Shown here: positions 9,546 through 61,207 of the stretch, piece after piece
How positions within the stretch are numbered: the stretch's first letter is position 1
Layout: each line of letters starts with the position of its first letter
Virus record (IMG/VR): IMGVR_UViG_3300020473_002200
Coordinates: 96,001 to 160,000 of that record
Reading direction: 5' to 3' (one strand)
Source of the DNA: a virus
Length of the DNA stretch: 64,000 nt
Program-made: the position numbers and the translations under genes
Notes under the pieces: generated by a model
Told to the model about the DNA's origin: nothing
The model's database searches: none
Seen by the model: only the letters and a program-made list of their open reading frames with translations

Positions 9546-9782
9546 ATGAACACTAAGCTTATTAGAGAATTTATACGACTTTTTTTAGAGAGATCAAGCG
9601 ATGTACTCGGTGAACCTGACCTCTCAAACCAAGAGGAAAGAGAAAAAGAGAAAAAAGATTCTGAGAAAGATGAAATGTCTGTTGCTGCTGGTATGCCTGG
9701 TGTTTCCACACCGCTAGGTACTGGACCGACCTACCCTGCTAAAATTGTCAAAAAGAATAAGAAAAGACAAAAAAAGAAATAG
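9546..9782 (+). CDS. small protein with leader MNTKLIREFIRLFLE
   Basis: Leader matches the 49-60 kb array consensus; GATAATTAAT immediately upstream. Confidence 0.65.
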   Translation: MNTKLIREFIRLFLERSSDVLGEPDLSNQEEREKEKKDSEKDEMSVAAGMPGVSTPLGTGPTYPAKIVKKNKKRQKKK

Positions 9783-46005: not shown

Positions 46006-46149
46006 ATGCTGCCAGCAGCAATCCTTAATATGTTTATGTGTGTTGTAAGTTATGAATTTTTAAATAAAGATGTCGCTCTTTTGAATTTTTTGACAGCATG
46101 CGTTTGCTATCTTTCTTGGAGGATAGGAAAAGTGCAAAATGACTTATAG
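46006..46149 (+). CDS. possible 47 aa membrane protein (not in the ORF track)
   Basis: MLPAAILNMFMCVVSYEFLNKDVALLNFLTACVCYLSWRIGKVQNDL fills the gap and overlaps the next start. Confidence 0.35.
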   Translation: MLPAAILNMFMCVVSYEFLNKDVALLNFLTACVCYLSWRIGKVQNDL

Positions 46150-46744
46150 AAAAATTCGTGAATGGCCGAATGAAGAATTAAAAATAAAATCTGCCAATAT
46201 TGACATCTTAAAAGATCGAGAAGCTATAAACGATTTACTTGATACTTTTAAGGTCGTTGGTGGTTATGGGTTGTCTGCTCCTCAAATTGGGTTACATGTT
46301 AGAGCGATTGTAATAAATCCCAGCGCGTTAAAAAAGGATGATTCTTTAAATAACGAAGAGCTAATGCTAAACCCTGTTATTATAGACAGAAAGGGTACAC
46401 AAGTTTTTAGTGAAGCGTGTTTTTCTTTGCCTAATCTAAGTTTAGATATAGAGAGGAGTTCTGAGGTACTAGTTGAGTGGAAGAATATCGATGGTGAATT
46501 AAAAAGACAGTGGTTTAGTGATTATTCGTCTGCCTGCGTACAGCATGAAATCGATCACTTAGACGGCGTTCTTACAATAGATAGAATTTCGCAGCTACGC
46601 CGAAGTATGATTATTAAGAAAATCAAAAAGAAAAACTTAGAAGTAATAAAGGCCAGCAAAAGACCTAGCGATGAAAGATCAAGACAAAAGTCTTTAAGAA
46701 CAAGAAAGAAAAATCGTATAAAAAGGAAAGCAAACAAAAGATGA
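46139..46744 (+). CDS. def: peptide deformylase
   Basis: GLSAPQIG, EACFSL, QHEIDHLDG; long basic C-terminal tail. Confidence 0.9.
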   Translation: MTYRKIREWPNEELKIKSANIDILKDREAINDLLDTFKVVGGYGLSAPQIGLHVRAIVINPSALKKDDSLNNEELMLNPVIIDRKGTQVFSEACFSLPNLSLDIERSSEVLVEWKNIDGELKRQWFSDYSSACVQHEIDHLDGVLTIDRISQLRRSMIIKKIKKKNLEVIKASKRPSDERSRQKSLRTRKKNRIKRKANKR

Positions 46745-47016
46745 GTTTTAACGCGATTAGAACGAAAGTATTAGTACTAGCAGGTAAGTGTCCAGCGATC
46801 CTTAAAAGTAGTTCATATGAAGATGTCGAAGAGTGGATTAACACCATAAATCGATTTAAGAAACCAAATGAAGACTATCAGGCGTCTGTTTACAGGTACT
46901 GGGCGCGCCAGCAGCTTTATGATAATAAAGAGCAATTAGAAGATACTCTTGAAACAATCTCTAGGGTGTGTAATACAAACGATACAATTTTTTCATTGGC
47001 TGCGAAATCAGATTAA
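46741..47016 (+). CDS. hypothetical protein
   Basis: ATGA coupling. Confidence 0.5.
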   Translation: MSFNAIRTKVLVLAGKCPAILKSSSYEDVEEWINTINRFKKPNEDYQASVYRYWARQQLYDNKEQLEDTLETISRVCNTNDTIFSLAAKSD

Positions 47017-47270
47017 TGAGAAAGAATGATCTGGTAAAAAGAGTTAAAAAGAGCGAAAGAACATTTTATAATGAAATGGAATTAGACTCTATTGGAATAA
47101 TCGTCAAAGGCCCATACGAAAAAAATGTGTCTGATATTATTTACGCTATAAAGCCATGGTTAAAGCAAAAGGTGAGATATACTGAGATAAAGATGGTTAT
47201 AGACATATTAAGTGAAAATAGGGTTTATAAGCATTGCGTTATTGAAGAATACGAGAGGGTAAAGAGTTGA
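47016..47270 (+). CDS. hypothetical protein
   Basis: TAATG coupling. Confidence 0.5.
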   Translation: MRKNDLVKRVKKSERTFYNEMELDSIGIIVKGPYEKNVSDIIYAIKPWLKQKVRYTEIKMVIDILSENRVYKHCVIEEYERVKS

Positions 47271-48280
47271 GAAAGACAATTACGTTTGATGATGTTTTAT
47301 TGGTTCCCCAATATTCAGAGATTTTATCTAGAAAACAAATTGATCTTTCTGTTAATTTAGGGGATAATTTATTGGATCTGCAATGTCCTTTTGTGTCTAG
47401 CCCAATGGACACTGTGACAGAGCATACAATGGCTATCTCTATGGCGAAGTATGGCGGTCTTGGTATTGTCCATAGATATAATACGATCAAGGGACAGGCT
47501 GATATCGTAAGAGAAGTCCAGATGAAAACTGATAAAGTTGCTGCAGCTATCGGTGTTTCGGGAGATTTTTTAGAACGTGCCCAAGCAGTTATTTCAGAGG
47601 GCGCAAAAATACTTTGTGTTGATGTGGCACACGGCCATCACGCTTTAATGAAGAATGCTTTAAAAAAATTACGTGATATCTTTAGTGATGATATTCACAT
47701 TATGGCGGGTAATGTAGCAACTCTTGACGGCTTTAATGATTTGGCTGATTGGGGCGCCGATAGTATTCGTGTAGGTATTGGTGGGGGCTCTATTTGCTCC
47801 ACACGAATCCAAACTGGTCATGGAGTCCCAACTCTACAAAGCATACTAGATTGCTCGCAGACGGATCGTAATGCCTTGATAATCGCAGATGGTGGAATGC
47901 GGAGCACAGGTGATATTGCAAAAGCGATAGCTGCCGGAGCTGATTTAGTGATGTGCGGTTCTCTATTTGCGGGTACCGATGAATCACCTGGAGAGGTATT
48001 TTCAGCTTCTGATAATAAGAAATATAAAGTATATAGAGGTATGGCTTCTGTGGAGGCACAAAGGGACTGGAAGGGCAGCCATAATTCAGTCGAGGGTATC
48101 TCTACAACAATACCATATAAGGGCTCTATTAAGGACATAATTGAATTAATGAAAAAGCAATTAGCTAGTGCATGTTCATACTCTGGTGCCGTTAGCTTAA
48201 GCGAATTTAGAAATAAATCTGAGTTGATTGTACAATCAAACTCGGCCCAACAAGAAAGCTCTACTCATATTTTGAGATGA
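47267..48280 (+). CDS. IMP dehydrogenase / GMP reductase family protein (no CBS domain)
   Basis: [52 protein letters not shown]. Confidence 0.88.
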
Positions 48281-48878: not shown

Positions 48879-49517
48879 ATGAGAAGCAAATTAAGAACAT
48901 TAATTAGAGAAATGCTTGAAGATGAGCTTAGTCCAGTCGCTCCGCAACGAACAATACCCCAGAATGAATGGACTTTATTGCAGTCTGGTGATCCAAGAAG
49001 AGAGCAAGTAAAACAAAACTTATTCGATTTAGTGCAGCAAACATACGCTCCTATCGGTGGCCACTTTAAAATTACTAGTCCTGATAGTCTAGATAGATAC
49101 ACCTATTGGGTCGTTAAAGATATTGATGATGATGCAGATGTTGATGTTGCGATTATGGGAAAACCTGATGTCGGCGGAGTAAAAATGGGGGCCGCAGCAA
49201 ATGATGGCTCACCACAGGCCTCAGGGGAATATAAGAGCAAATCTGCAGAGCTTAGAGCTGGTGGATCTATTGCCGGTATTGGGAATTGGTGGGGTGAGGT
49301 TAGCGGAAAGCCTGCGTACGCCATGTTAAAAAGAGGCGCAAAGCCAGTTGAGGATGAAGCGAAGGTTGCACAATTACTCGCAGGTGATGACTATATTTTT
49401 CATGGAGAACACCCGGACCCAAATGCTCCGCCATTGTTTAAGAGCGCAAAGGGTTGGTATACTAAAAAGTTCGGAGCTAAAAGCTCAACAAAGATCATAT
49501 TGGGGAATCCAGCGTGA
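48879..49517 (+). CDS. leader-tagged cargo protein (MRSKLRTLIREMLE), unknown domain
   Basis: First member of the array. Confidence 0.7.
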   Translation: MRSKLRTLIREMLEDELSPVAPQRTIPQNEWTLLQSGDPRREQVKQNLFDLVQQTYAPIGGHFKITSPDSLDRYTYWVVKDIDDDADVDVAIMGKPDVGGVKMGAAANDGSPQASGEYKSKSAELRAGGSIAGIGNWWGEVSGKPAYAMLKRGAKPVEDEAKVAQLLAGDDYIFHGEHPDPNAPPLFKSAKGWYTKKFGAKSSTKIILGNPA

Positions 49518-49705
49518 ACTTATTACGAGAATATATAAGCGCGCTATTAGAGTTTAGTATAAAGGCTAATAGGAAGAACACTCACCAAGATGGAACATGT
49601 CAAAGTCGTGGTTATATGAGCGGGAAAGATGTGACATGGACCGGCGACGATACAAATGACGAGCTGTATGGCTGGTATAAAAAAATGGGAATGATGGAGG
49701 ACTAA
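49514..49705 (+). CDS. leader-tagged small protein (MNLLREYISALLE)
   Basis: GTGA coupling. Confidence 0.65.
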   Translation: MNLLREYISALLEFSIKANRKNTHQDGTCQSRGYMSGKDVTWTGDDTNDELYGWYKKMGMMED

Positions 49706-49944
49706 TGAAAGTCACAAAACGACAATTAAGAAAAATCATTTCAGAAGCGCTAGCACTGGATCTAGAAGTCGGCGATGTAATTCTTACTGGTCGTTTTAAA
49801 AACAAGAGAACAGTCGTAAAGAGTATTGGGACTGATGACATGGGCCAACCTACTATAAACGGGATGAAAGCGCTCAGCTTTAGAATAGAGAAGCTGATGC
49901 CAAAATCTAAATGGAGTAAAAAGTCTCTGGAGGAAGAAGAGTGA
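49705..49944 (+). CDS. leader-tagged small beta-rich protein (MKVTKRQLRKIISE)
   Basis: Cargo LEVGDVILTGRFKNKRTVVKSIGTD. Confidence 0.7.
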   Translation: MKVTKRQLRKIISEALALDLEVGDVILTGRFKNKRTVVKSIGTDDMGQPTINGMKALSFRIEKLMPKSKWSKKSLEEEE

Positions 49945-50909
49945 AAATCACAAAACGACAACTGCGAAGAATTATCAGGGAATCTACCTACGAAGATTGG
50001 CGAGATGATATTAACATCGCTGATGATTGGTATGGTGATCTTAGCAACACGCAAGATGAGTATAGTAAGCTACGATCACCTGCAGGTAACAGGATAGGAA
50101 TAAGCTGGTACCTTGGCGTTCCTATGTGGTCTAGCTATGCCAAGTCGACGTTCATGAAAAGGTATGGAAATCGCGCTGGCGCTACAGTTAGGATTGTTAG
50201 AGACCGGAAGGACCCTCCACTGGTAGGGTATATTACAGTTAACGGTATAAAGTCTCTTGACCTCAGCGACCTTAGCAACGTCGATAAACGCCCTCGAGAA
50301 CTAGCTGACTTACTGAAAAAAACTATGGACGAAAGTCTTAAAGACCCCGAGCGAATGGCTCAGTACAAAGATTACCTGAATTCAAATCGAGGGCCCGGGA
50401 TGGTAATGGCCTCTGCAAGATCGTCATGCTCTAAGATGAGAATCACAGAGGCGCAACTAAGAAGAATTGTTAAAGAATCTTTGAAGACAGAAATATTCGG
50501 CTTTGGTAAAAAGAAGAAGAAAGAAAGCAAAATAGAAAAACCCGTTTATCTTATAAGAGTAGATAGTTTTCCAAAAAGCTGGGCCGCCCATTCCTACAGA
50601 ATAAGTAAAGACCAAGATAATGAAAATAGAAAATCTGAAAAGCAACTAGGAAAAGAGATTGGCGCAGAAGTAGACATGGCTCTTTTGAATAATCGATATA
50701 TTCTAGCTGTGCAAAAGCCTTATGAAACTAGCGCTGAAGCAAAAAGCGTAGTTAGTAAAATAAACACCGTAGTTAAGAAAATGCTTGAAGATGAATCAAT
50801 CCACTTTGGCAAAGATAAGCAAACTCCAGAAGCAATAAAGTCTGGTAAAATAGCGTCTATTCTTGTGTGGGATTCGGAAAAAAGTCTTCCTTGGGAGAAG
50901 TTGCTATAA
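49941..50909 (+). CDS. two fused leader-tagged cassettes
   Basis: MKITKRQLRRIIRE at the start and an in-frame MRITEAQLRRIVKE at 50436. Confidence 0.7.
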   Translation: MKITKRQLRRIIRESTYEDWRDDINIADDWYGDLSNTQDEYSKLRSPAGNRIGISWYLGVPMWSSYAKSTFMKRYGNRAGATVRIVRDRKDPPLVGYITVNGIKSLDLSDLSNVDKRPRELADLLKKTMDESLKDPERMAQYKDYLNSNRGPGMVMASARSSCSKMRITEAQLRRIVKESLKTEIFGFGKKKKKESKIEKPVYLIRVDSFPKSWAAHSYRISKDQDNENRKSEKQLGKEIGAEVDMALLNNRYILAVQKPYETSAEAKSVVSKINTVVKKMLEDESIHFGKDKQTPEAIKSGKIASILVWDSEKSLPWEKLL

Positions 50910-51235
50910 TGAAAGTTACAAAGAAACAGTTGAGAAGAATAATCAGGGAAGTTTCTGCTTCACGCGCGATGTTAAATAAAGCACGTGAAGTTAACCGTGG
51001 TAAGGCAGCTGATTTATTTCAAAGGTTTGATGATCTAGGACACAGGCTAGCCCAGATGAGTAATTCTGATCCGGATTACGAAAATGTTAGTGATGATTAT
51101 GACATACTCGAAGATGAGCTTGAAGATCTTGGTTACGAAATTCCTTCGTCCTTTAATCCGTTTAGGGTCGATAGCGGCAAAATTCGAGATAAAGCCACTG
51201 GAGAAATTGTTCACACAAGGCAAAAAAGAAGATGA
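50909..51235 (+). CDS. leader-tagged protein (MKVTKKQLRRIIRE)
   Basis: TAATG coupling at 50907-50911 gives the true start. Confidence 0.7.
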   Translation: MKVTKKQLRRIIREVSASRAMLNKAREVNRGKAADLFQRFDDLGHRLAQMSNSDPDYENVSDDYDILEDELEDLGYEIPSSFNPFRVDSGKIRDKATGEIVHTRQKRR

Positions 51236-51402
51236 AGTTAGATGTCAAGACCTTAATAACGATAGTAACTTTTGCTGCCACGATGGGCGGCTTTTACTAT
51301 TCCACTCAGCTAAGGTTAGATCATCTAGAAGAGAATGTCGCTAGTGTAGAAAAGCAAATCAAGCAACTTAAGAAGCAAAAGAGAAAAGTTAGGACGAAGT
51401 AA
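51232..51402 (+). CDS. 56 aa TM plus coiled-coil protein (not in the ORF track)
   Basis: MKLDVKTLITIVTFAATMGGFYYSTQLRLDHLEENVASVEKQIKQLKKQKRKVRTK; coupled on both sides. Confidence 0.55.
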   Translation: MKLDVKTLITIVTFAATMGGFYYSTQLRLDHLEENVASVEKQIKQLKKQKRKVRTK

Positions 51403-51729
51403 GTGTACGAATACCGAGCATTTGTCAGAAAAGTATATGATGGTGATACAGTTACTGTAGATATTGATCTGGGATTCGACGTCATTCTTAAGGCTCAGAA
51501 AATACGTCTACTTCGTATAAACGCTCCTGAAGTCAGAGGTGAACAAAGAGAATTTGGCTTAAAGTCTAGAGACGCCCTTCGTCAAAAAATTGGTAATAAA
51601 TGGATTAGGCTAAAAACAGAAAAAGATAAGAAGGGTAAGTTCGGTCGCTGGCTTGGGGAGATTTGGTTCAATGATGAGTGCGTAAATGATTGGCTTCTAA
51701 GAGAGGGATTCGCAGAGGTATATAAATGA
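51403..51729 (+). CDS. staphylococcal nuclease (SNase/thermonuclease) homolog
   Basis: VYDGDTV, IRLLRINAPE, GKFGRWLG, WLLREGFA. Confidence 0.88.
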   Translation: MYEYRAFVRKVYDGDTVTVDIDLGFDVILKAQKIRLLRINAPEVRGEQREFGLKSRDALRQKIGNKWIRLKTEKDKKGKFGRWLGEIWFNDECVNDWLLREGFAEVYK

Positions 51730-53006
51730 AAATCGCAAAGTATCAGCTAAGAAAATTTATCCGCGAAAGTTTTTCTTCTGAAGATTTTAAGGATGTTTAT
51801 AATACTGCAAGGATGGCTCATGTAGGTCAAACCAGACGCGATGGTTCTGAGTATTTTTCACACCCATCAGAAGTTAGAAATATCGCCAGAAGTTTTTATC
51901 CTAGAGATAAACTCGCGCAATTAGCGGCTCTTCTTCACGATTCCTTAGAAGACGCCCCAGGATCTACAGTCGAGTCTGCTGAGGAGATGGAAGATTTTAT
52001 CAGGGGTTCTATACAGGATAATTCTCAAGCTGATGAAGTGATTAGGGTCGTACGCGCTTTGACTCATGAAAAGGGTGGAGATTATTTGTCATACGTAGTC
52101 GGTTTAATGGGTGATGTGCCTACTCTAAGGGTAAAGTTATCAGACATGGTTCATAATCTTACCGATAATCCGTCTCCAAAACAAAAAGCAAAATATAAAT
52201 CAGCTTTAGACGCAATTTCAATAAAGACTTCAGGCCAGCCTCCTTCTGGAATTTCTAGCAAACATTGGGACACTCTTCTTTCTTTGGCTGAGAATAAAAA
52301 TCATTCTTTAAAAGAATATATTGGTTTATTAATTGAGCTGGATGAAGTGGCACTTCTTAGTGAGGGTGAGGGTATATCTTGTCCTATTCGCGGGGCTTGG
52401 TACGGCGGCATGCCTGCAGGCGGCGGGTTTGGTCCCCATAAAGAGTACACTGTCGCAGCCCAAAGATACGGAGAGGCTGCTCATTGTATTCTTGGTTCTC
52501 TTGGTAGAAGGGTCGGTGCACCCGGAAAAACAGAGTGGCATTCAATGATGGTCGGCGAACGCGAGCACCTTCTAGAAGAAATCGGCATCATGATGAAAGT
52601 GATAGAAGAGTATTCTAGAGACTTGTACATAGACCAAATTAACGATATCACTCGCTATAGAGAAGATCGAAGGGAAGAGATTGCTGAGTGGAACCAGGGT
52701 GCAATTGATGACATTAGAAAGACGGCACCAAAACTTGAAGAAAAAGCTAGAAATAATATGGGCCGCTTAAAAGCAATAAAAGATGCTGAGCCAGAGTTTC
52801 CAGACTCTGTTTTTAAAGTTGCGCTTTATACATACCAAAGCTTAGGTATGCTAGGCAAGTTTATGCTTGAGAGTATTGAAGACTGGGACGATGAAAAAGG
52901 GACCGGTTTAGATCCTGCAAAAAACGCTTTTAAAAACCGGCGACTGCGTGGAAGAACTTTTATGTTAGCCGCGGCTATCGATGAAATGATTGAGGACTTA
53001 TCATGA
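51726..53006 (+). CDS. leader-tagged HD-domain (p)ppGpp hydrolase-like (Mesh1/SpoT-HD) domain fused to a second cassette
   Basis: AHVGQTRRDGSEYFSHP, AALLHDSLED, VKLSDMVHN; internal LKEYIGLLIE at 52308. Confidence 0.8.
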   Translation: MKIAKYQLRKFIRESFSSEDFKDVYNTARMAHVGQTRRDGSEYFSHPSEVRNIARSFYPRDKLAQLAALLHDSLEDAPGSTVESAEEMEDFIRGSIQDNSQADEVIRVVRALTHEKGGDYLSYVVGLMGDVPTLRVKLSDMVHNLTDNPSPKQKAKYKSALDAISIKTSGQPPSGISSKHWDTLLSLAENKNHSLKEYIGLLIELDEVALLSEGEGISCPIRGAWYGGMPAGGGFGPHKEYTVAAQRYGEAAHCILGSLGRRVGAPGKTEWHSMMVGEREHLLEEIGIMMKVIEEYSRDLYIDQINDITRYREDRREEIAEWNQGAIDDIRKTAPKLEEKARNNMGRLKAIKDAEPEFPDSVFKVALYTYQSLGMLGKFMLESIEDWDDEKGTGLDPAKNAFKNRRLRGRTFMLAAAIDEMIEDLS

Positions 53007-53959
53007 GCTTACTACGAAGATACATAAGGGAAGCGTTAATAAGCGAAAGCGCTAACTTAAAAAAGCTTAACGAAATTATAGAAGAGTGTTGCATTAGATA
53101 CTGCTTAAAAGAAGGCATTATATCTATACCGTCTAATCCAAAAAACTATATTGTTGTAGAGGGCCGATGGCTTATAAGAAAGTCTTTACTTGCCGAAAGA
53201 AAAAGTGATACTTTGGCGACAATTGATCAAGCAAGAAAGTCCTCGAATTATTGGACTCCTGGGAAATGTGGCGATTTTGAGCACACTTATGGGAGCATAA
53301 GTACAAATCTTAAGCATGGCCGCGGTATGGATCATATTGAAAAATATTTAGATGATGATGAAGGTGAAGCATATTGGAGATGGTATGGTTCATGTGCAAA
53401 AGGGGTGGATAAATTCCAGTGGTTACAAGCAGATATGATAGCCGGTGCGGGTGGTGCGATTGTTGATCTTACAAAAGCTGCTGGGAAGGGGTTGTATAGA
53501 ATACTTAAGCCGGCCGTGAAGAAAGCCGGTCGTTTAGCATTAAACGTAGCAGACGAAGCTGGAAAACTTGCTTTAAAGTCGACCGGCAAAGCTTTGGGGA
53601 TCGCGTGGGATGTTATAAAAGACGTAGTAACAGATTCCGCAGACGCTACCTGGGACTGGATGAAGACTAGGGGGACAAAAAAAGACCTCACGACATTGGC
53701 TTATGAAAATCCGGATAAATTTATTGAATTTCATAATACAACAAAAGGCAGATTACAGGGCGCTGGTTTGCCGGTCGATTCAGCTGGAGAGACAGCCAGC
53801 ACAATGGGTTTGCTACAAACAGATATAGGGAAACAAACAGCAGAAACTGCTGCTAGCTCATTAGGTATTACTGCTTCTCAATTGGAAGATTTATTAATAG
53901 TTCATATGCACACATTTAATGAGCTTACTTTAGCTAAAAAGAGGACGGCTTTTACATGA
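53003..53959 (+). CDS. leader-tagged helical protein (MSLLRRYIREALISE)
   Basis: Ala/Gly/Lys amphipathic helices in the C-terminal half. Confidence 0.7.
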   Translation: MSLLRRYIREALISESANLKKLNEIIEECCIRYCLKEGIISIPSNPKNYIVVEGRWLIRKSLLAERKSDTLATIDQARKSSNYWTPGKCGDFEHTYGSISTNLKHGRGMDHIEKYLDDDEGEAYWRWYGSCAKGVDKFQWLQADMIAGAGGAIVDLTKAAGKGLYRILKPAVKKAGRLALNVADEAGKLALKSTGKALGIAWDVIKDVVTDSADATWDWMKTRGTKKDLTTLAYENPDKFIEFHNTTKGRLQGAGLPVDSAGETASTMGLLQTDIGKQTAETAASSLGITASQLEDLLIVHMHTFNELTLAKKRTAFT

Positions 53960-55080
53960 AACTACTACGTGAATACATAAGAGAGTTATTACTAATAGAA
54001 TCCGATGAAGTTGATGCCGACGGGTACATCAAAGGTGAGGATGGGAAATGGTATAATCCCCAAGGTCGAAAGCAATGGGAGTTGCCATGGCAATTTAAGA
54101 ATAGCAGGAAGACAGGCAATATCAGGTACTACCCCGACGAGGATGGGACTTGGACTATTAAGCCACCATCGCCTATTCCCTCCAAGTATAACGGGGTTGA
54201 GGGTTACGTCTTGCATGCTGCGTACGAAAAGAATGGGGATGTCAAGTACGGAAGCAAAGTCGCCGGTGTGGATTTGCATGCAGGACAGTCCGCGGAATGG
54301 TGGGAATATCCGAAAGACGGCTCGATCGTAGTAGTACATCCAGAGCTCTATCAACGTGATGACGGTTACCCCTGGTTCACAAATCCCGAGTGGGTGGCGT
54401 ACTATAAAAAGGCGCTGGAAAAGATAATGACTTTGGGTGGAAACGCCTTCTCTTTCGCGAAATTCCAAGGGTTTATAGTTCAGGCCCAAGATCCTAATAG
54501 CGAATGGGCAAAGAGGCTTAGCGACTTAGGGGTAGCTGAAGGTCATACGCTATTAGAGCGTTATGGAAGAGCACTCCTCGATCCTGGTGATGAAGATTGG
54601 GTCGAGCAGGCAAAAGCAGCACGAGAAGGTGCAAAGTTACAGGGGCTATCATTTGAACTGTTTAAATGGCTTGGTGCCCATCTTGACTGGATGAAGACCT
54701 ATTATAAGAAGAGTATAAGTGATTTAGTTCTCCTCGAGCTTCTTGATGTGTACGAAGAATCCCAATCCGCTCCTAAGCCGGATTTAGAGGACGATGCCAC
54801 CGCCACTAAGGAAGGGAAAGAGCTAGCGCTCAAATTAGCTGACGCCATGTACATGCCTGTATTCGCTAAAGGCTTTGCAAAAATATGGCGTAAATTAAAT
54901 ATAAGTCCAAGGGAAGAGATTAGGGCGTTCTCGAAGTACGCAAGGGGAAATCGCACTGATGGTTATACACAGGCACATGATCTCTTAAGGAAGCATGATG
55001 AAACGACATATCCTAGTGGTATCATTTATGAGATACCAGACGAAGCCTATGCAGCGCTAGCAAGAGAATATTACAGCTAA
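53956..55080 (+). CDS. leader-tagged protein of unknown function
   Basis: MKLLREYIRELLLIE. Confidence 0.7.
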   Translation: MKLLREYIRELLLIESDEVDADGYIKGEDGKWYNPQGRKQWELPWQFKNSRKTGNIRYYPDEDGTWTIKPPSPIPSKYNGVEGYVLHAAYEKNGDVKYGSKVAGVDLHAGQSAEWWEYPKDGSIVVVHPELYQRDDGYPWFTNPEWVAYYKKALEKIMTLGGNAFSFAKFQGFIVQAQDPNSEWAKRLSDLGVAEGHTLLERYGRALLDPGDEDWVEQAKAAREGAKLQGLSFELFKWLGAHLDWMKTYYKKSISDLVLLELLDVYEESQSAPKPDLEDDATATKEGKELALKLADAMYMPVFAKGFAKIWRKLNISPREEIRAFSKYARGNRTDGYTQAHDLLRKHDETTYPSGIIYEIPDEAYAALAREYYS

Positions 55081-55813
55081 TGAAACTACTACGCGAGTAC
55101 ATAAGGGAGTTGTTGAGAGAGAAGGGCGAGCTTGGTAAAAAAGTGTTCGCTCAATCTGCACCTGAAGGTTCTCGCCACGCCGGAGATGAGCCGGACACTA
55201 AGTTGGAGACCAGTTTGAAACGTGCGCTAGCGAATCACTTGTTTGCAGGCGGCGCTTCATCAAAAGAGTTGGGTGAGCTTGGTCCCTACATATTGCGGTT
55301 CATGGATGATCCGGACTACAACGATGTCTTTATCAGATATTCGGGTGGAGAAGTTTGCAGAGGGACTCGGCTGAGTTTAGAAGAAGCCAGAAGTCTTATA
55401 CCTGGTTTCGACAACATGCCACTTGAGAGTGCAACAGGTCGTACACATGCATTCCAGAAGTTTGAAGCTTGGACACAGAAGGTCTCTGTTCCTCCATTTG
55501 AGTATTCCCCTAAGTCTGGCAACCAAGTGTCCTCGTGGTCAACGAACAGCGAAAGAGTCTGTACTCGGTTCGCGAAAAAGAACGCCGGTATTTGGGATGG
55601 AAATGTTGGCGTAATTCTATATACAGACTCTAGCCAAAATGATTTCTTAGATTTTAGCGAGCTGTACAAGTTTGGAGCGCTAAGTAAACACAGCCATGAA
55701 AAAGAAGTAGCAGCATTTGGTCCTGTGTTGGTAACGGCAGTTAAGGTTTACAAAGAGGTTACCGAAGAACAATGGGCTGAAGTGCAAACTGAAGTAGAGT
55801 TAGGAAGACCAAA

Positions 55814-55817
<4 letters not shown>
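55080..55817 (+). CDS. leader-tagged putative ADP-ribosyltransferase (R-S-E type)
   Basis: VCRG, VSSWST, HEKEV. Confidence 0.6.
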
Positions 55818-56864
<1,047 letters not shown>

Positions 56865-56865
56865 A

Positions 56866-57456
56866 ATGAACCTACTACGCGAGTACATAAGGCAACTGCT
56901 AACTGAATCCACTATTGATCCAAAGATCATGAGAATGATCGACAAGGCAGAGAAATATGGTCTTTTCGTGGACATCACATCTAACAGCGTAATCATCTAC
57001 GACGGCCACAACACCGATAAACCGCGCGCTAAAATTCACTTTGAAAGAGATACATCTTTCGGCCCCTGCAGAGGTGGAGCTTACGTTACTTATGCAAAAG
57101 CAGAAGGTGGCTTTGGCCCATTAGCTTATGACGTTGCCATTGAGGCTACAGGCGGTCTGATGTCAGATCGAACTGAAGTTTCCCACGAAGCGATGGTCGT
57201 TTGGGATTACTACGCGAATAACAGGCCCGATGTCAAAGTAGACCAGCTGGACATAATGAAGGACTACGGAGAAGAACAGTTAACTCCTGATGACAAGTCC
57301 GACGATTGCGATCAGGTACCGGCGTACGACAGGTACAAGTCAGACTGGCACAAGTCAGGCCTGTCAAAAAAGATAAGCAAGAGGGGTACGCCAGTCATAG
57401 ATGAGCTTAGAGCGCGTTTCATGCTTTACGACGATAGGGAAGACCACACACTATGA
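56866..57456 (+). CDS. leader-tagged GNAT acetyltransferase-like protein
   Basis: GGFGPLAYDVAIE...LMSDR..VS..A..VWDYY (motif A/B-like). Confidence 0.55.
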   Translation: MNLLREYIRQLLTESTIDPKIMRMIDKAEKYGLFVDITSNSVIIYDGHNTDKPRAKIHFERDTSFGPCRGGAYVTYAKAEGGFGPLAYDVAIEATGGLMSDRTEVSHEAMVVWDYYANNRPDVKVDQLDIMKDYGEEQLTPDDKSDDCDQVPAYDRYKSDWHKSGLSKKISKRGTPVIDELRARFMLYDDREDHTL

Positions 57457-58436
57457 AACTACTACGTGAATACATAAGAGGGTTACTTCAAGAAAGTGTT
57501 AGCCCAGAAAAGTTGAAAGATCTTGCTTCGAAGATAATGGTTTCCCCGAGCAATGATTTTTCTGGTCAAGTTGGAGAAAAGATAGCTCTGATGTGGCATC
57601 CGAATGGAATGAACCTAAATAGCATCAAGAATAATAATTTCTTCCCATTTGCAGATATAGCTGCTGGGCCCCTGCCTTCTGCTACTGGCGAGCGGACTTA
57701 TAGGCAAAGACAAAACGCTAGCCATCCGTTTCCACCTCTCTATTCTGTAAAAGCAAGTAGCAGCATTACTTTTAGAAAAGGTGTATGGCAAGGAGCTGAT
57801 CCTTTTGCTAATTCAAGAATCAAAGGTAGCACTATATACGAATTAGTCAATGAACGCGGCCAAAATGGTTTAAGAGACGAAATTGATGCAATTTATGGAC
57901 CTGCCGAGGCTGGTAAAGTAGTCAAGCTAAGATTGGGAGCTATCGGGATCTTTCCTAGAGCGATGGCTAAGGACGAATCTGAAGAGCCGAGAGATGCTTT
58001 TGCTGACCCTAGAGCGATAGGTGTTACAGTTAAAAAATACGGTCCGAAGGAATTTGAGTTTGTAGCAAGCGCGGCCGGGCTTTATGAAAACCCAGTGACA
58101 CGCGTTGGTAAGCTTGGTAGCGAATCCCTAGTAAGTGGCGCGTTTGGCGCCCCTGATAACTTAACCAGCGAAGATATGCAGCAACCAGCCTCTGTAATTC
58201 CTGCACAAACTAGCGGCAGAAAAGATCAAAAATCAGATAGCGCTAGAGTAGCCGACCAAGAAACTTTAGACAGTTTGAGAAGTAGTATTGCTGCTATTGA
58301 TGACTCAAGGATTAGTCTTTCTAATCAAGATTTAAAAACTTTAGCAGATATTAGCACTCTAGAACCTGATGAATTTGAAGAAATTAGAGAGTTAGTTAGA
58401 GGAATATTGTCTAGAAGATCTGGAGAAGAAGCGTGA
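57453..58436 (+). CDS. leader-tagged putative restriction-endonuclease-fold protein
   Basis: GEKIA, NFFPFADI, YSVKAS. Confidence 0.4.
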   Translation: MKLLREYIRGLLQESVSPEKLKDLASKIMVSPSNDFSGQVGEKIALMWHPNGMNLNSIKNNNFFPFADIAAGPLPSATGERTYRQRQNASHPFPPLYSVKASSSITFRKGVWQGADPFANSRIKGSTIYELVNERGQNGLRDEIDAIYGPAEAGKVVKLRLGAIGIFPRAMAKDESEEPRDAFADPRAIGVTVKKYGPKEFEFVASAAGLYENPVTRVGKLGSESLVSGAFGAPDNLTSEDMQQPASVIPAQTSGRKDQKSDSARVADQETLDSLRSSIAAIDDSRISLSNQDLKTLADISTLEPDEFEEIRELVRGILSRRSGEEA

Positions 58437-58969
58437 ATCTCCTACGCGAGTACATAAAAGAATTGCTATCTGAGAATAAGCTGTCCAGCGCTGAGATACA
58501 ACACCTGCAGGCCATCAAACGCGGTTCAAGACATGAACGACGACGACCTCAGGCAATCGTCATAGGCAGGCTAATAGATAAGGGTTTTGTAACCGGCGAT
58601 ATGAAAGGTAATCAATTTCTCCCAGGTTACGGCGCTTCATCTAGTGCTAGCAACCTTGCCATCACTCCAGAGGGTGAAGCAGCATTAAGAGCAACTTTAG
58701 GCAAGGCAGACTCAGACATGGCCAAGTACCAAAAGATAATAATGCAAGCGGTCATCGACGCTGCAGGCAGTTCGGTACCAGAACACGAGTTGCCAGGTTA
58801 CAACCCAAAGACATTCAAGCTAAGAGGAAAGTACCGCAAAGCGTTTGACGAGTTGCGTGGGTTCGGAAGTGACATCGACGCCTTAACGATACAGAGAGAT
58901 TCACAAGGCAACAGAATGGTTAGCCCAGGACCTGATTTTGAGCGTATTAAAAGCGAGTTAGGATTATGA
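58433..58969 (+). CDS. leader-tagged winged-helix-like protein
   Basis: RLIDKGFV...AITPEGEAAL. Confidence 0.45.
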   Translation: MNLLREYIKELLSENKLSSAEIQHLQAIKRGSRHERRRPQAIVIGRLIDKGFVTGDMKGNQFLPGYGASSSASNLAITPEGEAALRATLGKADSDMAKYQKIIMQAVIDAAGSSVPEHELPGYNPKTFKLRGKYRKAFDELRGFGSDIDALTIQRDSQGNRMVSPGPDFERIKSELGL

Positions 58970-59763
58970 AACTACTTCGCGAGTACATAAGAGAGCTACT
59001 GAAGGAAGATCCAATGGGTTTTGTTCAGGATCTCGCCGCGGCATCTGATCAATTCCGTGACGAAGACTTTAACGAGTTTCACGGCGGCAACCCAGGTAAG
59101 TCAGGAGGCAGGGCGATCAAGCGTGCATTTGCTGCCAACGCTGATTATAACTTTCTCAACTCCTTAGATACTGTTCATTGGATTAAAGACGCTTACAATC
59201 TCAAACCGCTCATAGGCAGATCTCGAGATGAATTATCAGCCACTATGACTCTGCCTAGCGAGCCTTTTAAAGCGCCAAGAGGTTTTAATGCTGACCTAGA
59301 GTTAGGCTTGTGGATAAAGGGTCGTATAACTCTGGCAGCCAATAGTCAAGACGACCTGTACACTGGTACTTACTTCGATTACATGAGAGGACGTGATCCC
59401 GAACAGTTTGAAAAAGATAAGCACCGCAAAGCATCATCAGGTGTAAACAAGAGACCCACTGTTTCAAAAGATTATAGCAGGTACGCAAAGCTAAAAAGAG
59501 GCAATGAGTACCATGAAAAGCTGGCCAGAAAGATTCCGTATGTTCTGGATCAGTCGACTTGGAATCCAGCTTCTATAAACGAGGCGCTAGTAGACAACTG
59601 GCGAGCAAAGGGACTGATTGTCTCGGACCAAAGTATTATCGATGCAATCAAGGACAACCCAGAAGGCGACGGTGTAGGCTGGCTAAAAGAATTTTATGAG
59701 ATGGCTGAGGTATTCGACGTTCCAATGTATGACACAGACAAAAACGTAATCTGGAGCCCGTAA
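58966..59763 (+). CDS. leader-tagged protein, possible ART-like fold
   Basis: TVHW, ELSAT, IKGRITLA..D, NEALV pattern. Confidence 0.5.
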   Translation: MKLLREYIRELLKEDPMGFVQDLAAASDQFRDEDFNEFHGGNPGKSGGRAIKRAFAANADYNFLNSLDTVHWIKDAYNLKPLIGRSRDELSATMTLPSEPFKAPRGFNADLELGLWIKGRITLAANSQDDLYTGTYFDYMRGRDPEQFEKDKHRKASSGVNKRPTVSKDYSRYAKLKRGNEYHEKLARKIPYVLDQSTWNPASINEALVDNWRAKGLIVSDQSIIDAIKDNPEGDGVGWLKEFYEMAEVFDVPMYDTDKNVIWSP

Positions 59764-60569
59764 TGAAACTACTACGCGAGTACATAAGAGAACTTTTAAA
59801 TGAGAAAGCCCGAGTGCGCGGCTATATTAAGCCGTCTTCTTCTTTTCACACACTTCTACAGTGGGAGCTTGTGGTAGAAGAATTACTACAGCTTCAGAAG
59901 CAGGGTGTTGATACTCGAGGAGGCATGAGCTTAAATCAGAGACTACTTCAGATAATCGATGAATATTTTGGTTTTCAATACAATATCGAGGTAGAGAGGT
60001 ACGATCTCCTAACTCAAAAGAACATTTTAGACTTCATCGAGGATTTTACCAATCACAGATTTTGGGGACTGGAGAGAGAGTTCGGTAGTTATTTTCCCGA
60101 TATAAGTAAGTTGAAGTTTGCTTACTTCTATTCTCGTGGAGATCTTGAGCCTCATGTACTGATGGATGAAGAATTTACAACTCAGATTTATGGTGGTCTA
60201 GACAATCAAAAACGTCTTAGTCACTATACAACTCAAGCGGGAGTAGAAAGAATTCAGGCAGCTATTGACTCAGGTCGACCTTTCGATATATCATGTTTCA
60301 CCGTTGCGGAACGCCCTTTCTTTAGACCTGAATCTAGCTTGGTCGTGGAGTTAATAGGTAATGTTCGTGGGGGTTTTAGGAGTGATATTAAATCTGTCGC
60401 AGTTGATACTGGGCGCAGAGCATGTAATATGTATAGACTAGAGTACCCTGGCAAAGATCAGGATAATATTTGTAGAGAGCTGGACTCTTGTGATAGCGAA
60501 GTTCGTACTTCTTTGTGGAATGAATATATAGCGACGCCTGAAAAGATATTAAGCGTTAAGAAGGTATAG
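59763..60569 (+). CDS. leader-tagged protein, possible ART-like fold
   Basis: LSHYT, DISCFT, LIGNVRGG..SD, WNEYI pattern, parallel to 58966. Confidence 0.5.
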   Translation: MKLLREYIRELLNEKARVRGYIKPSSSFHTLLQWELVVEELLQLQKQGVDTRGGMSLNQRLLQIIDEYFGFQYNIEVERYDLLTQKNILDFIEDFTNHRFWGLEREFGSYFPDISKLKFAYFYSRGDLEPHVLMDEEFTTQIYGGLDNQKRLSHYTTQAGVERIQAAIDSGRPFDISCFTVAERPFFRPESSLVVELIGNVRGGFRSDIKSVAVDTGRRACNMYRLEYPGKDQDNICRELDSCDSEVRTSLWNEYIATPEKILSVKKV

Positions 60570-60571
60570 GG

Positions 60572-61207
60572 ATGTCATCTCAACTTATCATGATTTTAAA
60601 AGAATCAATTTCAGTAGTTCCTACTGGAAAATATATCTTTCAGCATAAGGGGTATCCATTATCAGTTGAGGAGCAAGCAAAAGATCTAGCCGAGGTTGTC
60701 GCCCAGTATCAAAAAAGAAAAGTTTCAGATAAATTACAGAAGACATGCGATGAAAATTTTAATAAACTTTTTCAAGTTTTTTTGGAGTCCAAAGGTAGAA
60801 CGTACAACGTAGATTATTATGACATGGTGATCGTTGGTCTAAAGCCAATAATCATAAAGCTCAAGAAGTACTATGATCGCCCTAGGCCCGCTGCATTAGC
60901 CAAGAGTATGGGCATAGATTTTTTAGGTGATGAGCTCGATTCTGCCCAATCTCCGTCATATCCAAGCGGCCACACCATCCAGTCTTACGTAATGGCAAAA
61001 ATGTTAAGTGATCAATTTCCAGAGCATGAAGAGAACTTGCTTAAAATAGCAGAGATAATTTCACAATCAAGGATTGATCGCGGAGTACATTTTCCAACTG
61101 ATATAGAGTATGGTAAAGAAGTTGCCGAGTCTTTATTTCTTCAAATAAAAGAGGGTCTAGGCGGTGAAACGCCTCAAGACAGGCAAGTATACGATCAAAT
61201 GGATTAA
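60572..61207 (+). CDS. PAP2-family phosphatase / haloperoxidase
   Basis: KKYYDRPRP, SYPSGHT, SRIDRGVHFPTD. Confidence 0.88.
   Translation: MSSQLIMILKESISVVPTGKYIFQHKGYPLSVEEQAKDLAEVVAQYQKRKVSDKLQKTCDENFNKLFQVFLESKGRTYNVDYYDMVIVGLKPIIIKLKKYYDRPRPAALAKSMGIDFLGDELDSAQSPSYPSGHTIQSYVMAKMLSDQFPEHEENLLKIAEIISQSRIDRGVHFPTDIEYGKEVAESLFLQIKEGLGGETPQDRQVYDQMD

What the first reader, a model, noticed from the sequence alone, without database searches (positions are those of the whole stretch)
48879..60569. Array of capsid-targeting-leader cassettes: a candidate packaged-effector arsenal
Seen: about 16 consecutive unrelated domains begin with M[KNS]LLR[ER]YIR[EQG]LLxE (ten intact genes plus one stub) or MK[IV]TKxQLR[RK]IIxE (four starts plus one internal copy). 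Every leader ends in hydrophobic-x-E (LLKE, LLRE, LLTE, LLQE, LLSE, LLNE, LLIE, LISE, IIRE, IISE). Established: T4 internal proteins use the 10 aa CTS MKTYQEFIAE, gp21 cleaves after (I/L)-x-E, and packaged IPI* and Alt act on injection. Inference: a modular addressing system that loads host-takeover and anti-defence enzymes (ART, GNAT, alarmone hydrolase, nuclease, wHTH) into the head for delivery before gene expression. It is larger and more enzyme-rich than the T4 IP locus, and I know of no characterisation of these leaders.
Basis: partly seen in the sequence, partly recalled or inferred. Interest (0 to 1): 0.92.

Follow-up and report, generated by a model that had tools for sequence, protein, structure and literature searches.

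The report
Capsid-loading tags on swappable phage genes
An uncultured marine T4-related jumbo phage puts one of two 14-residue N-terminal tags on about 16 otherwise unrelated proteins in one gene array; the tags most likely load these proteins into the phage head and are then cut off, as in phage T4, but on a much larger scale and with enzyme cargo, and none of this has been measured.

Summary
Window 48879-60569 holds 10 type-A leaders (MxLLREYIRxLLxE), 4 N-terminal and 1 internal type-B leader (MKITKRQLRRIIxE), and one B variant. Chance expects none.

The 188-kb phage has a T4-type head module with a gp21-family (S77) prohead protease and a gp23 capsid protein. Leader A shares M1, K2, E6, aromatic 7, I8 and E10 with the T4 capsid targeting sequence MKTYQEFIAE.

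Conservation collapses right after Glu14 in both leaders. The same leaders head arrays in at least 20 uncultured contigs (20-293 kb), and the five largest checked all encode S77. The same cargo occurs behind different leaders. Fused polyproteins keep leader remnants (…LLxE) as linkers.

Cargo support:
- ADP-ribosyltransferase fold: two paralogues.
- GNAT fold.
- (p)ppGpp-hydrolase-type HD domain.

SNase and ferredoxin lack leaders. The wHTH claim is unconfirmed.

Best reading (about 0.65): cleavable prohead-targeting propeptides on exchangeable cargo. This is a new variant of the T4 CTS/internal-protein system. Packaging, cleavage and injection are not shown.

No paper describing these leaders was found. 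This scan has noted the same kind of array before on other genomes.

The parts
48879..49517 (+). B-variant leader (MRSKLRTLIREMLEDE) plus a 212-aa cargo of unknown function
   Evidence: Alignment A2: the cargo is 82% identical to a copy behind a canonical B leader (L009) and 31% identical to a copy behind an A leader (L011). One search shows further copies behind A-like leaders in G001 and G003.
49514..49705 (+). Leader A on a 63-aa stub
   Evidence: It is homologous to the N-terminus of a 243-aa leader-A protein, P0152.
49705..49944 (+). Leader B plus a small basic cargo (79 aa in all)
   Evidence: An 81%-identical copy lies in the G001 array.
49941..50909 (+). Leader B on a 322-aa protein with a second, internal B leader (50436-50477) and a KKMLEDE motif (50769-50795); candidate three-part polyprotein
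50909..51235 (+). Leader B plus a 94-aa acidic cargo
51232..51729 (+). Two genes without a leader: a 56-aa membrane-like protein and a staphylococcal-nuclease homologue (51403-51729)
   Evidence: Pfam SNase, 45 bits. Leaderless SNase also sits in the arrays of G002 and G003.
51726..53006 (+). Leader B, then an HD domain of (p)ppGpp-hydrolase type, then an internal degenerate A leader (HSLKEYIGLLIELDE, 52302-52346), then a second cargo domain
   Evidence: phmmer matches Rel/SpoT hydrolase domains at E 1e-10. HD_4 scores 25.5 bits, below the cut-off, but a 72%-identical homologue scores 35.1, above it. The C-terminal domain is homologous to a separate leader-A gene, L033_6056.
53003..53959 (+). 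Leader A (MSLLRRYIREALISE) plus a 318-aa cargo of unknown function
   Evidence: No Pfam hit.
53956..55080 (+). Leader A plus a 374-aa cargo of unknown function
55080..56509 (+). Two paralogous leader-A genes (55080-55817, 55814-56509) with an ADP-ribosyltransferase-like cargo
   Evidence: Invariant R-G-x-R, S-S-W-x-T and an E-x-E-type motif in alignment A1. In the VIA-align wide search the top hits are nearly all ARTs (Vis, Scabin, LT, pertussis S1, Tre1 and others), though Z is at most 5.0.
56506..56864 (+). 22-nt orphan leader fragment (56506-56527) followed by a leaderless ferredoxin gene (56538-56864); the same 22 nt start the next gene at 56866
   Evidence: Pfam Fer4.
56866..57456 (+). 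Leader A plus a GNAT-like cargo, the most widespread cargo family
   Evidence: AlphaFold model: pLDDT 76.8, with the leader as a detached low-confidence helix. Foldseek top hits are all GNAT acetyltransferases, E about 1e-2 and probability up to 0.91. 28 of 128 leader ORFs belong to this family.
57453..58436 (+). Leader A plus a 327-aa cargo of unknown function
58433..58969 (+). Leader A plus a 178-aa basic cargo (pI 9.6); the wHTH reading is unconfirmed
   Evidence: The Atlas gives only a weak lead: HTH_27 in 16% of one cluster, score 0.78.
58966..59763 (+). Leader A plus a 265-aa cargo of unknown function, common in marine metagenomes
   Evidence: One search finds 59 close relatives, one named from a Tara Oceans sample. 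In G002 this domain lies behind an internal leader in a 678-aa fusion.
59763..60569 (+). Leader A plus a 268-aa cargo of unknown function
   Evidence: A 71%-identical copy in G003 has a divergent N-terminus.
60572..61207 (+). PAP2-family phosphatase with a degenerate leader (MSSQLIMILKE); probable last member of the array
   Evidence: Pfam PAP2, 42.5 bits. PAP2 homologues carry a leader-A-like N-terminus (L021_4950) or sit behind a leader-remnant linker in the G001 polyprotein.

Best explanation
The two 14-residue leaders are capsid-targeting propeptides of the T4 CTS kind.

Proposed mechanism, all steps inferred:
1. Each tagged protein joins the scaffolding core of the prohead through its N-terminal amphipathic helix.
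2. The phage's gp21-family (S77) prohead protease then cuts after the conserved Glu14 of the [IL][IL]-x-E motif, and perhaps also after Glu10 of leader A.
3. The freed cargo stays in the head with the DNA and enters the host cell at infection.

The cargo is mostly enzymes: ADP-ribosyltransferases, a GNAT-like protein, a (p)ppGpp-hydrolase-type HD domain, a PAP2 phosphatase and many unknowns.

The leader DNA also serves as shared homology at which cassettes are gained, lost, fused and re-tagged. This is why related phages carry the same leaders on different cargo.

Shown here: the tags, their sharp boundary, the protease and T4-type head genes, the similarity to the T4 CTS, cargo turnover, and polyproteins linked by leader remnants. 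Inferred: targeting, cleavage, packaging, injection and effector roles.
For: 1. T4-type head machinery. Peptidase_S77 scores 89 bits against a cut-off of 27, and Gp23 scores 262 bits. The protease is 32% identical to T4 gp21, with the residues at T4 His85 and Ser140 aligned. The gene order is TerL, portal, a 294-aa gene, protease, five small genes, an acidic scaffold-like protein, then the MCP. This resembles T4 genes 20-67-68-21-22-23.

2. Similarity to the T4 CTS. Leader [11 protein letters not shown] against T4 IPII/IPIII MKTYQEFIAE shares M1, K2, E6, F/Y7, I8 and E10. In T4, residues 4 and 7 govern targeting and residues 8 and 10 govern processing (PMC9026906). In 77 distinct leaders, Y7 and I8 are each present in 76.

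3. Sharp boundary. Both leader classes end at Glu14 in [IL][IL]-x-E, the gp21-type motif. Information content falls from over 3 bits to under 1 bit (leader A) or to about 1-2 bits (leader B, only 15 sequences) at residue 15.

4. Selection acts on the peptide. Leu and Glu codons vary freely among 82 leader contexts.

5. Modularity. 128 leader ORFs fall into 41 cargo clusters. One cargo family occurs behind A, B and B-variant leaders.

6. Fusions keep the cut motif. A 923-aa G001 protein joins DUF192, PolyA_pol, GNAT-like and PAP2 domains through ...IRLLLRE|S...VRLLTE|A and ...KEILKE|E. A 678-aa G002 protein has a complete internal leader without a Met. Windows 49941 and 51726 also have internal leaders.

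7. Link to head-core proteins. The best match to leader B outside the array, in the whole proteome, is the N-terminus of a 93-aa protein encoded between protease and scaffold (KLTPRILRRMIQE, score 38 against a background of at most 30). The scaffold-like protein and a 135-aa core-region protein also rank high. These N-termini are conserved in relatives. The scaffold-like N-terminus keeps an invariant A-I-A-E-A, compared with T4 gp22 LIAE|A and the T4 CTS FIAE|A.

8. Co-occurrence. The leaders occur in 25 stretches from 21 uncultured viral contigs, each as one array. All 5 large records checked encode S77 and the scaffold-like protein.

9. Census. 137 representative clusters (50% identity) in 1.84 billion proteins match the leader-A profile at E of 1e-3 or better. 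Nearly all match at residue 1, and 11 have internal or double copies.

10. Structure. In both AlphaFold models the leader is a separate helix of low confidence, outside the folded cargo domain.

11. Precedent. T4 packages the ADP-ribosyltransferase Alt behind a propeptide removed by gp21 (PMC5694885).
Against: - There are no virion proteomics, no cleavage data and no cultured relative. tblastn of two cargos against 50,697 phage records found nothing.
- The similarity to the T4 CTS rests on about 6 of 10 residues and cannot be given a meaningful E-value. Position 4, a targeting residue in T4, is Leu here rather than Tyr.
- The cargo is mostly acidic (median pI about 5.2), whereas the T4 IPs are described as basic proteins (PMC9026906).
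- No late-promoter-like motif lies directly upstream of the array. It may be co-transcribed with metabolic genes from a sigma-70-like promoter near window 44580, so co-expression with head genes is not shown.
- Leader HMMs do not detect the head-module proteins. Their likeness to leader B is weak.
- Tyr7 = TAC, Ile8 = ATA and Arg5 = CGY are fixed beyond what the peptide needs, so some selection or homogenisation at DNA or RNA level is also at work.
- Glu10 is present in only 50 of 77 leaders, so the T4-equivalent cut site is not strictly kept.
Confidence: 0.65

Rival explanations
1. The tagged proteins are loaded into the prohead and processed, but they are not injected effectors. They would act inside the particle as core or scaffold accessories, as counter-ions or spacers for DNA packing, or as material that is degraded and expelled. 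The enzyme folds would then be incidental or act during assembly.
For: Leader B resembles the N-termini of small head-module proteins. Many B cargos are small, 79-130 aa. [quoted passage not shown]
Against: Cargo turns over quickly between related phages, and several cargos have enzyme folds that act on host-type substrates: ART, GNAT, ppGpp-hydrolase-type HD, PolyA_pol and PAP2. This pattern fits conflict proteins better than structural parts. T4 IPI* and Alt set the precedent for injected function.
Confidence: 0.15
2. The leader is a cleavable or masking N-terminal helix that has nothing to do with the capsid. It might be a pro-sequence that keeps toxic enzymes inactive, an oligomerisation or docking helix for a cytoplasmic complex, or a tag for a phage chaperone. 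The phage encodes a GroEL.
For: The leader is a short, charged, amphipathic helix detached from the cargo fold. The genome encodes a GroEL. The cargo is acidic, unlike the T4 IPs.
Against: This does not explain why both leaders end in the cleavage motif of a prohead protease. It does not explain the match to key T4 CTS residues, the likeness to head-core N-termini, or the strict co-occurrence with the S77 head module.
Confidence: 0.1
3. The conserved unit is mainly a DNA or RNA element. It would be a start-of-gene module that gives translational coupling and, above all, homology for cassette exchange. The peptide would be a by-product with no targeting role.
For: A 22-nt exact duplication of the leader brackets the ferredoxin insertion. 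TAC, ATA and CGY are fixed beyond peptide need. Most cassettes overlap by ATGA or GTGA. Repeat-mediated module shuffling is known in T4-type genomes as PeSLs (PMC2839356).
Against: Leu and Glu codons vary freely while the residues stay fixed. Complete or partial leaders persist in frame inside fusion proteins, where no initiation is needed. Two unrelated DNA sequences (A and B) give peptides of the same length and the same terminal motif. Recombination at the leaders is compatible with, and part of, the best explanation.
Confidence: 0.08

Closest known systems
Phage T4 capsid targeting sequence (CTS) on internal proteins IPI, IPII, IPIII and on Alt, removed by prohead protease gp21; polymorphic ip loci of T-even phages
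   Same: A short N-terminal propeptide on otherwise unrelated proteins, ending in (L/I)-x-E. The genome has a gp21-family protease, a gp23 MCP and a T4-like order of head genes. M1, K2, E6, aromatic 7, I8 and E10 are shared with MKTYQEFIAE. One cargo class (ADP-ribosyltransferase) parallels Alt. IP genes differ between related phages while the CTS is kept (PMC3012670, PMC9026906).
   Different: The leaders are 14 residues long, not 10-19 as in T4, and come in two distinct classes within one genome. There are about 16 tagged proteins in one contiguous array, against three IPs plus Alt scattered in T4. The cargo is mostly acidic, 170-430 aa and often enzyme-like, rather than small and basic. Multi-cargo polyproteins are joined by leader remnants. 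The phage is only distantly related to T4: it has a DnaE-type polymerase and a GroEL, and its MCP matches T4 gp23 at 35% identity over only about 240 residues. Nothing has been shown experimentally.
Ejection and inner-body proteins of phiKZ-like giant phages (phiKZ, 201phi2-1, SPN3US) with propeptides cut by a gp21-related protease
   Same: Many head-internal proteins carry N-terminal propeptides that are removed after a Glu by a T4-related prohead protease. In SPN3US, paralogues with diverged bodies keep identical N-termini (PMC5694885).
   Different: There the motif is A/S/G-x-E, most propeptides exceed 100 residues, and the cargo set is largely conserved (vRNAP, inner body). It is not a fast-changing cassette array behind one short shared tag.
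Polyvalent proteins and MuF-type polymorphic toxins of phages and conjugative elements (Iyer et al. 2017, PMC5512222)
   Same: Strings of conflict-type enzyme domains are delivered with the phage particle and thought to be processed by proteases. One leader-A protein in the census hits Pfam ART-PolyVal weakly (E 9e-4). Fused multi-domain forms exist here.
   Different: Here each domain is usually a separate gene with its own short tag. No MuF or other carrier domain was seen. The linkers are remnants of the tag itself.
PeSL mobile regulatory cassettes of T4-type phages (PMC2839356)
   Same: Short repeated sequences at gene starts mediate modular gain, loss and replacement of genes.
   Different: PeSLs are non-coding promoter and stem-loop elements. 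Here the repeat is coding, and its peptide is under selection.

Membership tests
T4-type CTS / internal-protein system | Short N-terminal propeptide shared by otherwise unrelated proteins | tested here: met
   10 A leaders, 4 N-terminal plus 1 internal B leader, and 1 variant. The cargos are unrelated by BLAST except for one paralogue pair.
T4-type CTS / internal-protein system | Propeptide ends in the gp21 cleavage motif (L/I)-x-E | tested here: met
   Glu14 is present in 65 of 77 A leaders and in all 15 B leaders, preceded by [LI][LI]-x. Conservation collapses at residue 15.
T4-type CTS / internal-protein system | Genome encodes a gp21-family (Peptidase_S77) prohead protease with catalytic His and Ser | tested here: met
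   PF03420 scores 89.1 bits against a cut-off of 27. The protein is 32% identical to T4 gp21, with the residues at T4 His85 and Ser140 aligned.
T4-type CTS / internal-protein system | T4-type prohead: gp23-family MCP, gp20-type portal, scaffolding core | tested here: met
   Gp23 Pfam scores 262 bits. Portal phrog_213 and TerL were found. An acidic 546-aa scaffold-like protein lies at the gp22 position, with an invariant N-terminal AIAEA. Homology of that protein to gp22 was not shown.
T4-type CTS / internal-protein system | Residues that matter in the T4 CTS (4 and 7 for targeting, 8 and 10 for processing; PMC9026906) | tested here: inconclusive
   Aromatic 7 and Ile8 are nearly invariant, and Glu10 is present in 50 of 77. 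Position 4 is Leu, not Tyr. Ten residues are too few for a statistical test of homology.
T4-type CTS / internal-protein system | Tag is sufficient for incorporation into the prohead and is removed by the protease; cargo is present in virions and ejected | not testable with these tools
   No cultured relative and no proteome. The complex prediction gave no verdict.
ADP-ribosyltransferase, R-S-E clade (cargo of 55080 and 55814) | ART fold | tested here: inconclusive
   Model pLDDT is 59.5. Foldseek found nothing significant. In the VIA-align wide search the top 19 hits are almost all ARTs, but Z is at most 5.0.
ADP-ribosyltransferase, R-S-E clade (cargo of 55080 and 55814) | Catalytic Arg, S-x-S/T motif and Glu-x-Glu motif, in that order | tested here: met
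   R94-G-x-R97 and S151-S152-W-x-T155 are invariant. EKE, ERE or EEE lies near the C-terminus in the four full-length sequences of alignment A1. Their assignment as catalytic residues is by pattern only.
GNAT acetyltransferase (cargo of 56866) | GNAT fold | tested here: inconclusive
   Model pLDDT is 76.8. All of the top 50 or so Foldseek hits are GNATs, but E is only about 1e-2 and TM about 0.3. There is no Pfam hit. The Atlas gives Acetyltransf_1 on 15% of one neighbouring cluster.
RelA/SpoT-type HD (p)ppGpp hydrolase domain (N-terminal domain of 51726) | Sequence match to the HD hydrolase domain of Rel/SpoT enzymes | tested here: met
   phmmer matches solved Rel/SpoT hydrolase domains at E 1.1e-10. 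HD_4 scores 25.5 bits, under the cut-off of 27.2; a 72%-identical homologue scores 35.1. Activity and substrate were not tested.
MuF / polyvalent-protein delivery systems | MuF or other head-associated carrier domain fused to the toxin or enzyme domains | not tested
   No such domain appeared in the Pfam scans of cargo and fusion proteins. The genome was not searched for MuF specifically.

The most novel reading that the evidence does not exclude
A clade of marine T4-related jumbo phages runs an open, two-channel protein-loading system. Two orthogonal 14-residue tags (A and B) would address different partners or amounts in the prohead core. Any gene that recombines behind a tag would become an injected effector. 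The tag's DNA core, which is held beyond peptide need, would double as the recombination site. The system would then work like an integron or a polymorphic-toxin locus for virion-delivered enzymes, with hundreds of mostly unknown cargo families.
Probability: 0.25. Interest if true: 0.8.

Novelty: new variant of a known kind. Interest (0 to 1): 0.62.

Why it matters
If the tags work as in T4, these abundant uncultured marine phages inject a changeable set of a dozen or more enzymes before any phage gene is expressed. The set includes ADP-ribosyltransferases, acetyltransferase-like proteins and an alarmone hydrolase. That would enlarge the known scope of virion-delivered effectors, from three small inhibitors plus Alt in T4 to a large, fast-evolving arsenal.

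It would also mark out more than a hundred protein families of unknown function as candidate host-takeover or anti-defence factors.

The tags themselves would be natural, short, portable signals for loading foreign proteins into capsids other than T4's.

The polyproteins linked by tag remnants offer a simple test of the cut-site specificity of a non-model prohead protease.

Tried and rejected
- Complex prediction of the scaffold-like protein (alignment A3) with the leader-A N-terminus (alignment A4) gave no verdict: score 0.00, controls not run. It counts neither for nor against binding.
- A Foldseek PDB search with the ART model gave nothing significant. A profile search of PDB sequences with A1 gave only chance-level hits.
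- tblastn of the cargos at 55080 and 56866 against 50,697 phage records found no match. The leader pattern is absent from Microcystis phage Mel-JY01, the closest cultured relative by protease and among the closest by MCP.
- The region-limited word search with residues 1-40 of 58966 returned mostly relatives of that one cargo, so it was not a leader census.
- In the profile census, columns 15-30 of the profile favour the GNAT-like family, and single-linkage clustering chains fusion proteins together. The 137 clusters are therefore not a count of cargo families.
- Promoter hunting found a (G)TATATTTA(A/G) motif before several structural genes but none before the array. Expression timing could not be decided.
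- Leader HMMs do not detect the head-module proteins. Only an ungapped BLOSUM scan ranks them.
- Full-text searches for the leader strings and for CTS literature found no description of these leaders.
- The wHTH claim for 58433 has only a weak Atlas lead.
- A Sec or Tat signal-peptide reading was rejected by inspection: the leaders are charged amphipathic helices with no hydrophobic core.

Full report
**What is there**

The window is bases 96001-160000 of a single 188,264-bp viral contig with 39% G+C and nearly all genes on the + strand. IMG/VR calls it 67% complete.

Between 48879 and 60569 the ORF list shows ten genes that begin with M[KNS]LLR[ER]YI[RKS]x[LA]L (leader A). Nine are 178-374 aa long and one is a 63-aa stub at 49514. 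Four genes begin with MK[IV][TA]KxQLR[RK][IF]IxE (leader B), and there is one internal B copy at 50436. The gene at 48879 begins with a B-like variant, MRSKLRTLIREMLEDE.

Back-translated patterns give 9 matches against 0.00 expected for A, and 4 against 0.01 expected for B. Leader HMMs score strongly nowhere else in the genome.

The cargo parts are unrelated to each other, except for the paralogues at 55080 and 55814. Three genes inside the array have no leader: a 56-aa membrane-like protein, an SNase homologue and a ferredoxin. The PAP2 gene at 60572 begins with a degenerate leader (MSSQLIMILKE) and probably belongs to the array.

**Genomic setting**

The contig is a distant member of the T4 superfamily. 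It encodes TerL and a portal. After the portal comes a 294-aa gene, then a 202-aa protein that matches Peptidase_S77 at 89 bits against a cut-off of 27. Five small genes follow, then a 546-aa very acidic scaffold-like protein, then a gp23-family MCP at 262 bits.

The protease is 32% identical to T4 gp21, and the residues at T4 His85 and Ser140 align. The gene order resembles T4 genes 20-67-68-21-22-23.

Replication genes are not T4-like: the phage has a DnaE-type polymerase, a DnaB helicase and a GroEL. The nearest cultured phages by MCP or protease are Microcystis phage Mel-JY01, the Flavobacterium 'immuto' phages and Rhodothermus RM378, at 30-54% identity.

**Likeness to the T4 tag**

The T4 record gives MKTYQEFIAE for IPII and IPIII, MAKINELLRE for gp24, and LIAE near the start of gp22. 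Leader A ([10 protein letters not shown]...) shares M1, K2, E6, an aromatic residue at 7, I8 and E10 with the T4 CTS.

According to the review PMC9026906, T4 targeting depends mainly on residues 4 and 7, and processing on residues 8 and 10. Here Y7 and I8 are each present in 76 of 77 distinct leaders, and E10 in 50 of 77. Position 4 is Leu.

Both leader classes are exactly 14 residues long up to a conserved Glu that is preceded by [IL][IL]-x. Information content drops from over 3 bits to under 1 bit at residue 15 for leader A. For leader B it drops to about 1-2 bits, but only 15 sequences are available.

The scaffold-like protein keeps an invariant AIAEA near its N-terminus in four related phages.

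**Link to head-core proteins**

An ungapped BLOSUM62 scan of leader B against every position of the 182 predicted proteins ranks the five array copies first. Next comes the N-terminus of a 93-aa protein encoded between protease and scaffold (KLTPRILRRMIQE), with a score of 38. The best background score is 30. The scaffold-like protein and a 135-aa neighbour (MAKVSRAVLKSLVKE...) also rank high. These N-termini are conserved in relatives.

This likeness is weak. The leader HMMs do not detect these proteins.

**Distribution and turnover**

A degenerate DNA pattern for leader A hits 25 stretches from 21 uncultured IMG/VR contigs of 20-293 kb. Each holds an array of A and often B leaders, in one locus per genome. 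All five large records tested encode S77 and the scaffold-like protein. Mel-JY01 has no such leader.

The 128 leader ORFs collected fall into 41 cargo clusters. The cargo of 48879 is 82% identical to a copy behind a canonical B leader and 31% identical to a copy behind an A leader. Further copies sit behind A-like leaders in G001 and G003.

A profile of 76 leader-A N-termini finds 137 representative clusters at E of 1e-3 or better among 1.84 billion proteins. Nearly all match at residue 1, and 11 have internal or double copies. Few of these proteins have Pfam domains. Those found are PolyA_pol, RNase_T, HD_4, Zeta_toxin/AAA_33 and a weak ART-PolyVal hit.

**Fusions**

A 923-aa protein of G001 joins DUF192, PolyA_pol, the GNAT-like domain and PAP2. 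The joints are ...ILRKSIRLLLRE|S...VIVRLLTE|A and ...FVKEILKE|E.

A 678-aa protein of G002 has an N-terminal leader and a complete internal one (VLRKYVRQLLKE|D) before a 58966-like domain.

In the window, 49941 carries an internal B leader. The gene at 51726 joins an HD domain to a second cargo through HSLKEYIGLLIELDE.

These in-frame remnants keep the hydrophobic-x-Glu end of the tag rather than its start. That is what one expects of protease sites, and not of translation-start elements.

**DNA level**

Leu and Glu codons in the leader vary freely, so selection acts on the peptide. However, Tyr7 is TAC in 67 of 82 contexts, Ile8 is ATA in 77 of 82 (ATT never appears), and Arg5 is CGY in 74 of 82. 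Genome-wide these codons make up 28%, 36% and 24% of their amino acids. I cannot explain this.

A 22-nt leader fragment at 56506-56527 is repeated exactly at 56866-56887 and brackets the leaderless ferredoxin gene. This looks like the footprint of an insertion by recombination within the leader. The array has 44-47% G+C, against 35-42% in the rest of the window.

**Cargo**

- 55080 and 55814: R-G-x-R and S-S-W-x-T are invariant, and EKE, ERE or EEE lies near the C-terminus of the four full-length sequences. The low-confidence model gives a wide structural search in which nearly all top hits are ADP-ribosyltransferases, but Z is at most 5.
- 56866: a good model (pLDDT 76.8) whose best Foldseek hits are all GNAT acetyltransferases, at E about 1e-2.
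- 51726, N-terminal domain: matches Rel/SpoT (p)ppGpp-hydrolase domains at E 1e-10.
- SNase, ferredoxin and PAP2 are Pfam-level hits.
- The other six cargos have no recognisable family. The wHTH claim is unconfirmed.
- Cargo is mostly acidic, with a median pI of about 5.2. The T4 IPs, by contrast, are described as basic proteins (PMC9026906).

**Interpretation**

The best-supported reading is that the leaders are T4-type capsid-targeting propeptides cut by the S77 protease after Glu14, and that they load an exchangeable set of mostly enzymatic cargo into the head.

Rao and Black (PMC3012670) already describe the T-even internal proteins as a diverse set of defence proteins with only a conserved CTS in common. 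PMC9026906 suggests that the CTS is an evolutionary device for packaging varied proteins. The principle is therefore known.

What differs here:
- the tag sequences, and the presence of two classes in one genome;
- the size and contiguity of the array;
- the enzyme-rich, acidic cargo;
- polyproteins linked by tag remnants;
- the host clade, uncultured marine jumbo phages far from T4.

No paper in the searchable library mentions these leaders. Targeting, cleavage, packaging and injection remain inferences. Expression timing could not be settled, and the one complex prediction gave no verdict.

Earlier notes of this scan report the same kind of array, including the MKITKRQLRRII leader, on other genomes. 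These are unchecked AI notes and were not used as evidence.

Noticed in passing
window 9546-9782 (+): A 78-aa ORF just upstream of a gp32-like SSB gene starts MNTKLIREFIRLFLE|RS, which is leader-A-like. The rest is charged and of low complexity, with a KKNKKRQKKK tail. It may be a small internal-protein-like cargo outside the array.
   Followed up: partly
window 56506-56887: An exact 22-nt leader fragment is duplicated on either side of a leaderless ferredoxin gene. This looks like the footprint of gene capture by recombination within the leader.
   Followed up: yes
82 leader-A contexts: window array plus loci L009-L033: Tyr7 is TAC in 67 of 82, Ile8 is ATA in 77 of 82 (never ATT) and Arg5 is CGY in 74 of 82. 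Neighbouring Leu and Glu codons vary freely. A nucleotide-level constraint on CGYGARTACATAAGR remains unexplained.
   Followed up: partly
L043:7167-9938 (IMGVR_UViG_3300007513_000001): A 923-aa polyprotein joins DUF192, PolyA_pol, a GNAT-like domain and PAP2 through leader-A remnants that end in LLxE.
   Followed up: yes
window 44610-45377 (+): A phage-encoded sigma-70 family factor (regions 1.2, 2, 3 and 4) lies behind a TATAAT-like promoter, about 3.5 kb upstream of the array.
   Followed up: no
window 46139-48280 and 63443-64000: Metabolic genes flank the array: peptide deformylase, an IMPDH/GMP-reductase family gene and a PLP-dependent enzyme. The IMPDH-like gene also lies beside the array in G001, and the PLP gene beside the arrays in G001 and G003.
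   Followed up: partly
genome 75088-76647 (L005:6088-7647), right after the MCP gene: A 519-aa protein starts MKSLRELY and has LRNILKE|A at residues 24-31. It has no Pfam hit. It may be another head-loaded protein with a diverged tag.
   Followed up: partly
genome-wide; for example upstream of genes starting at genome 36537, 53161, 89652 and window 61286: A (G)TATATTTA(A/G) motif recurs shortly upstream of structural genes and may be the late promoter. Early-region genes have TATAAT-like motifs instead.
   Followed up: partly
window 54000-60000: The leader-A part of the array has 44-47% G+C, against 35-42% elsewhere in the window.
   Followed up: no
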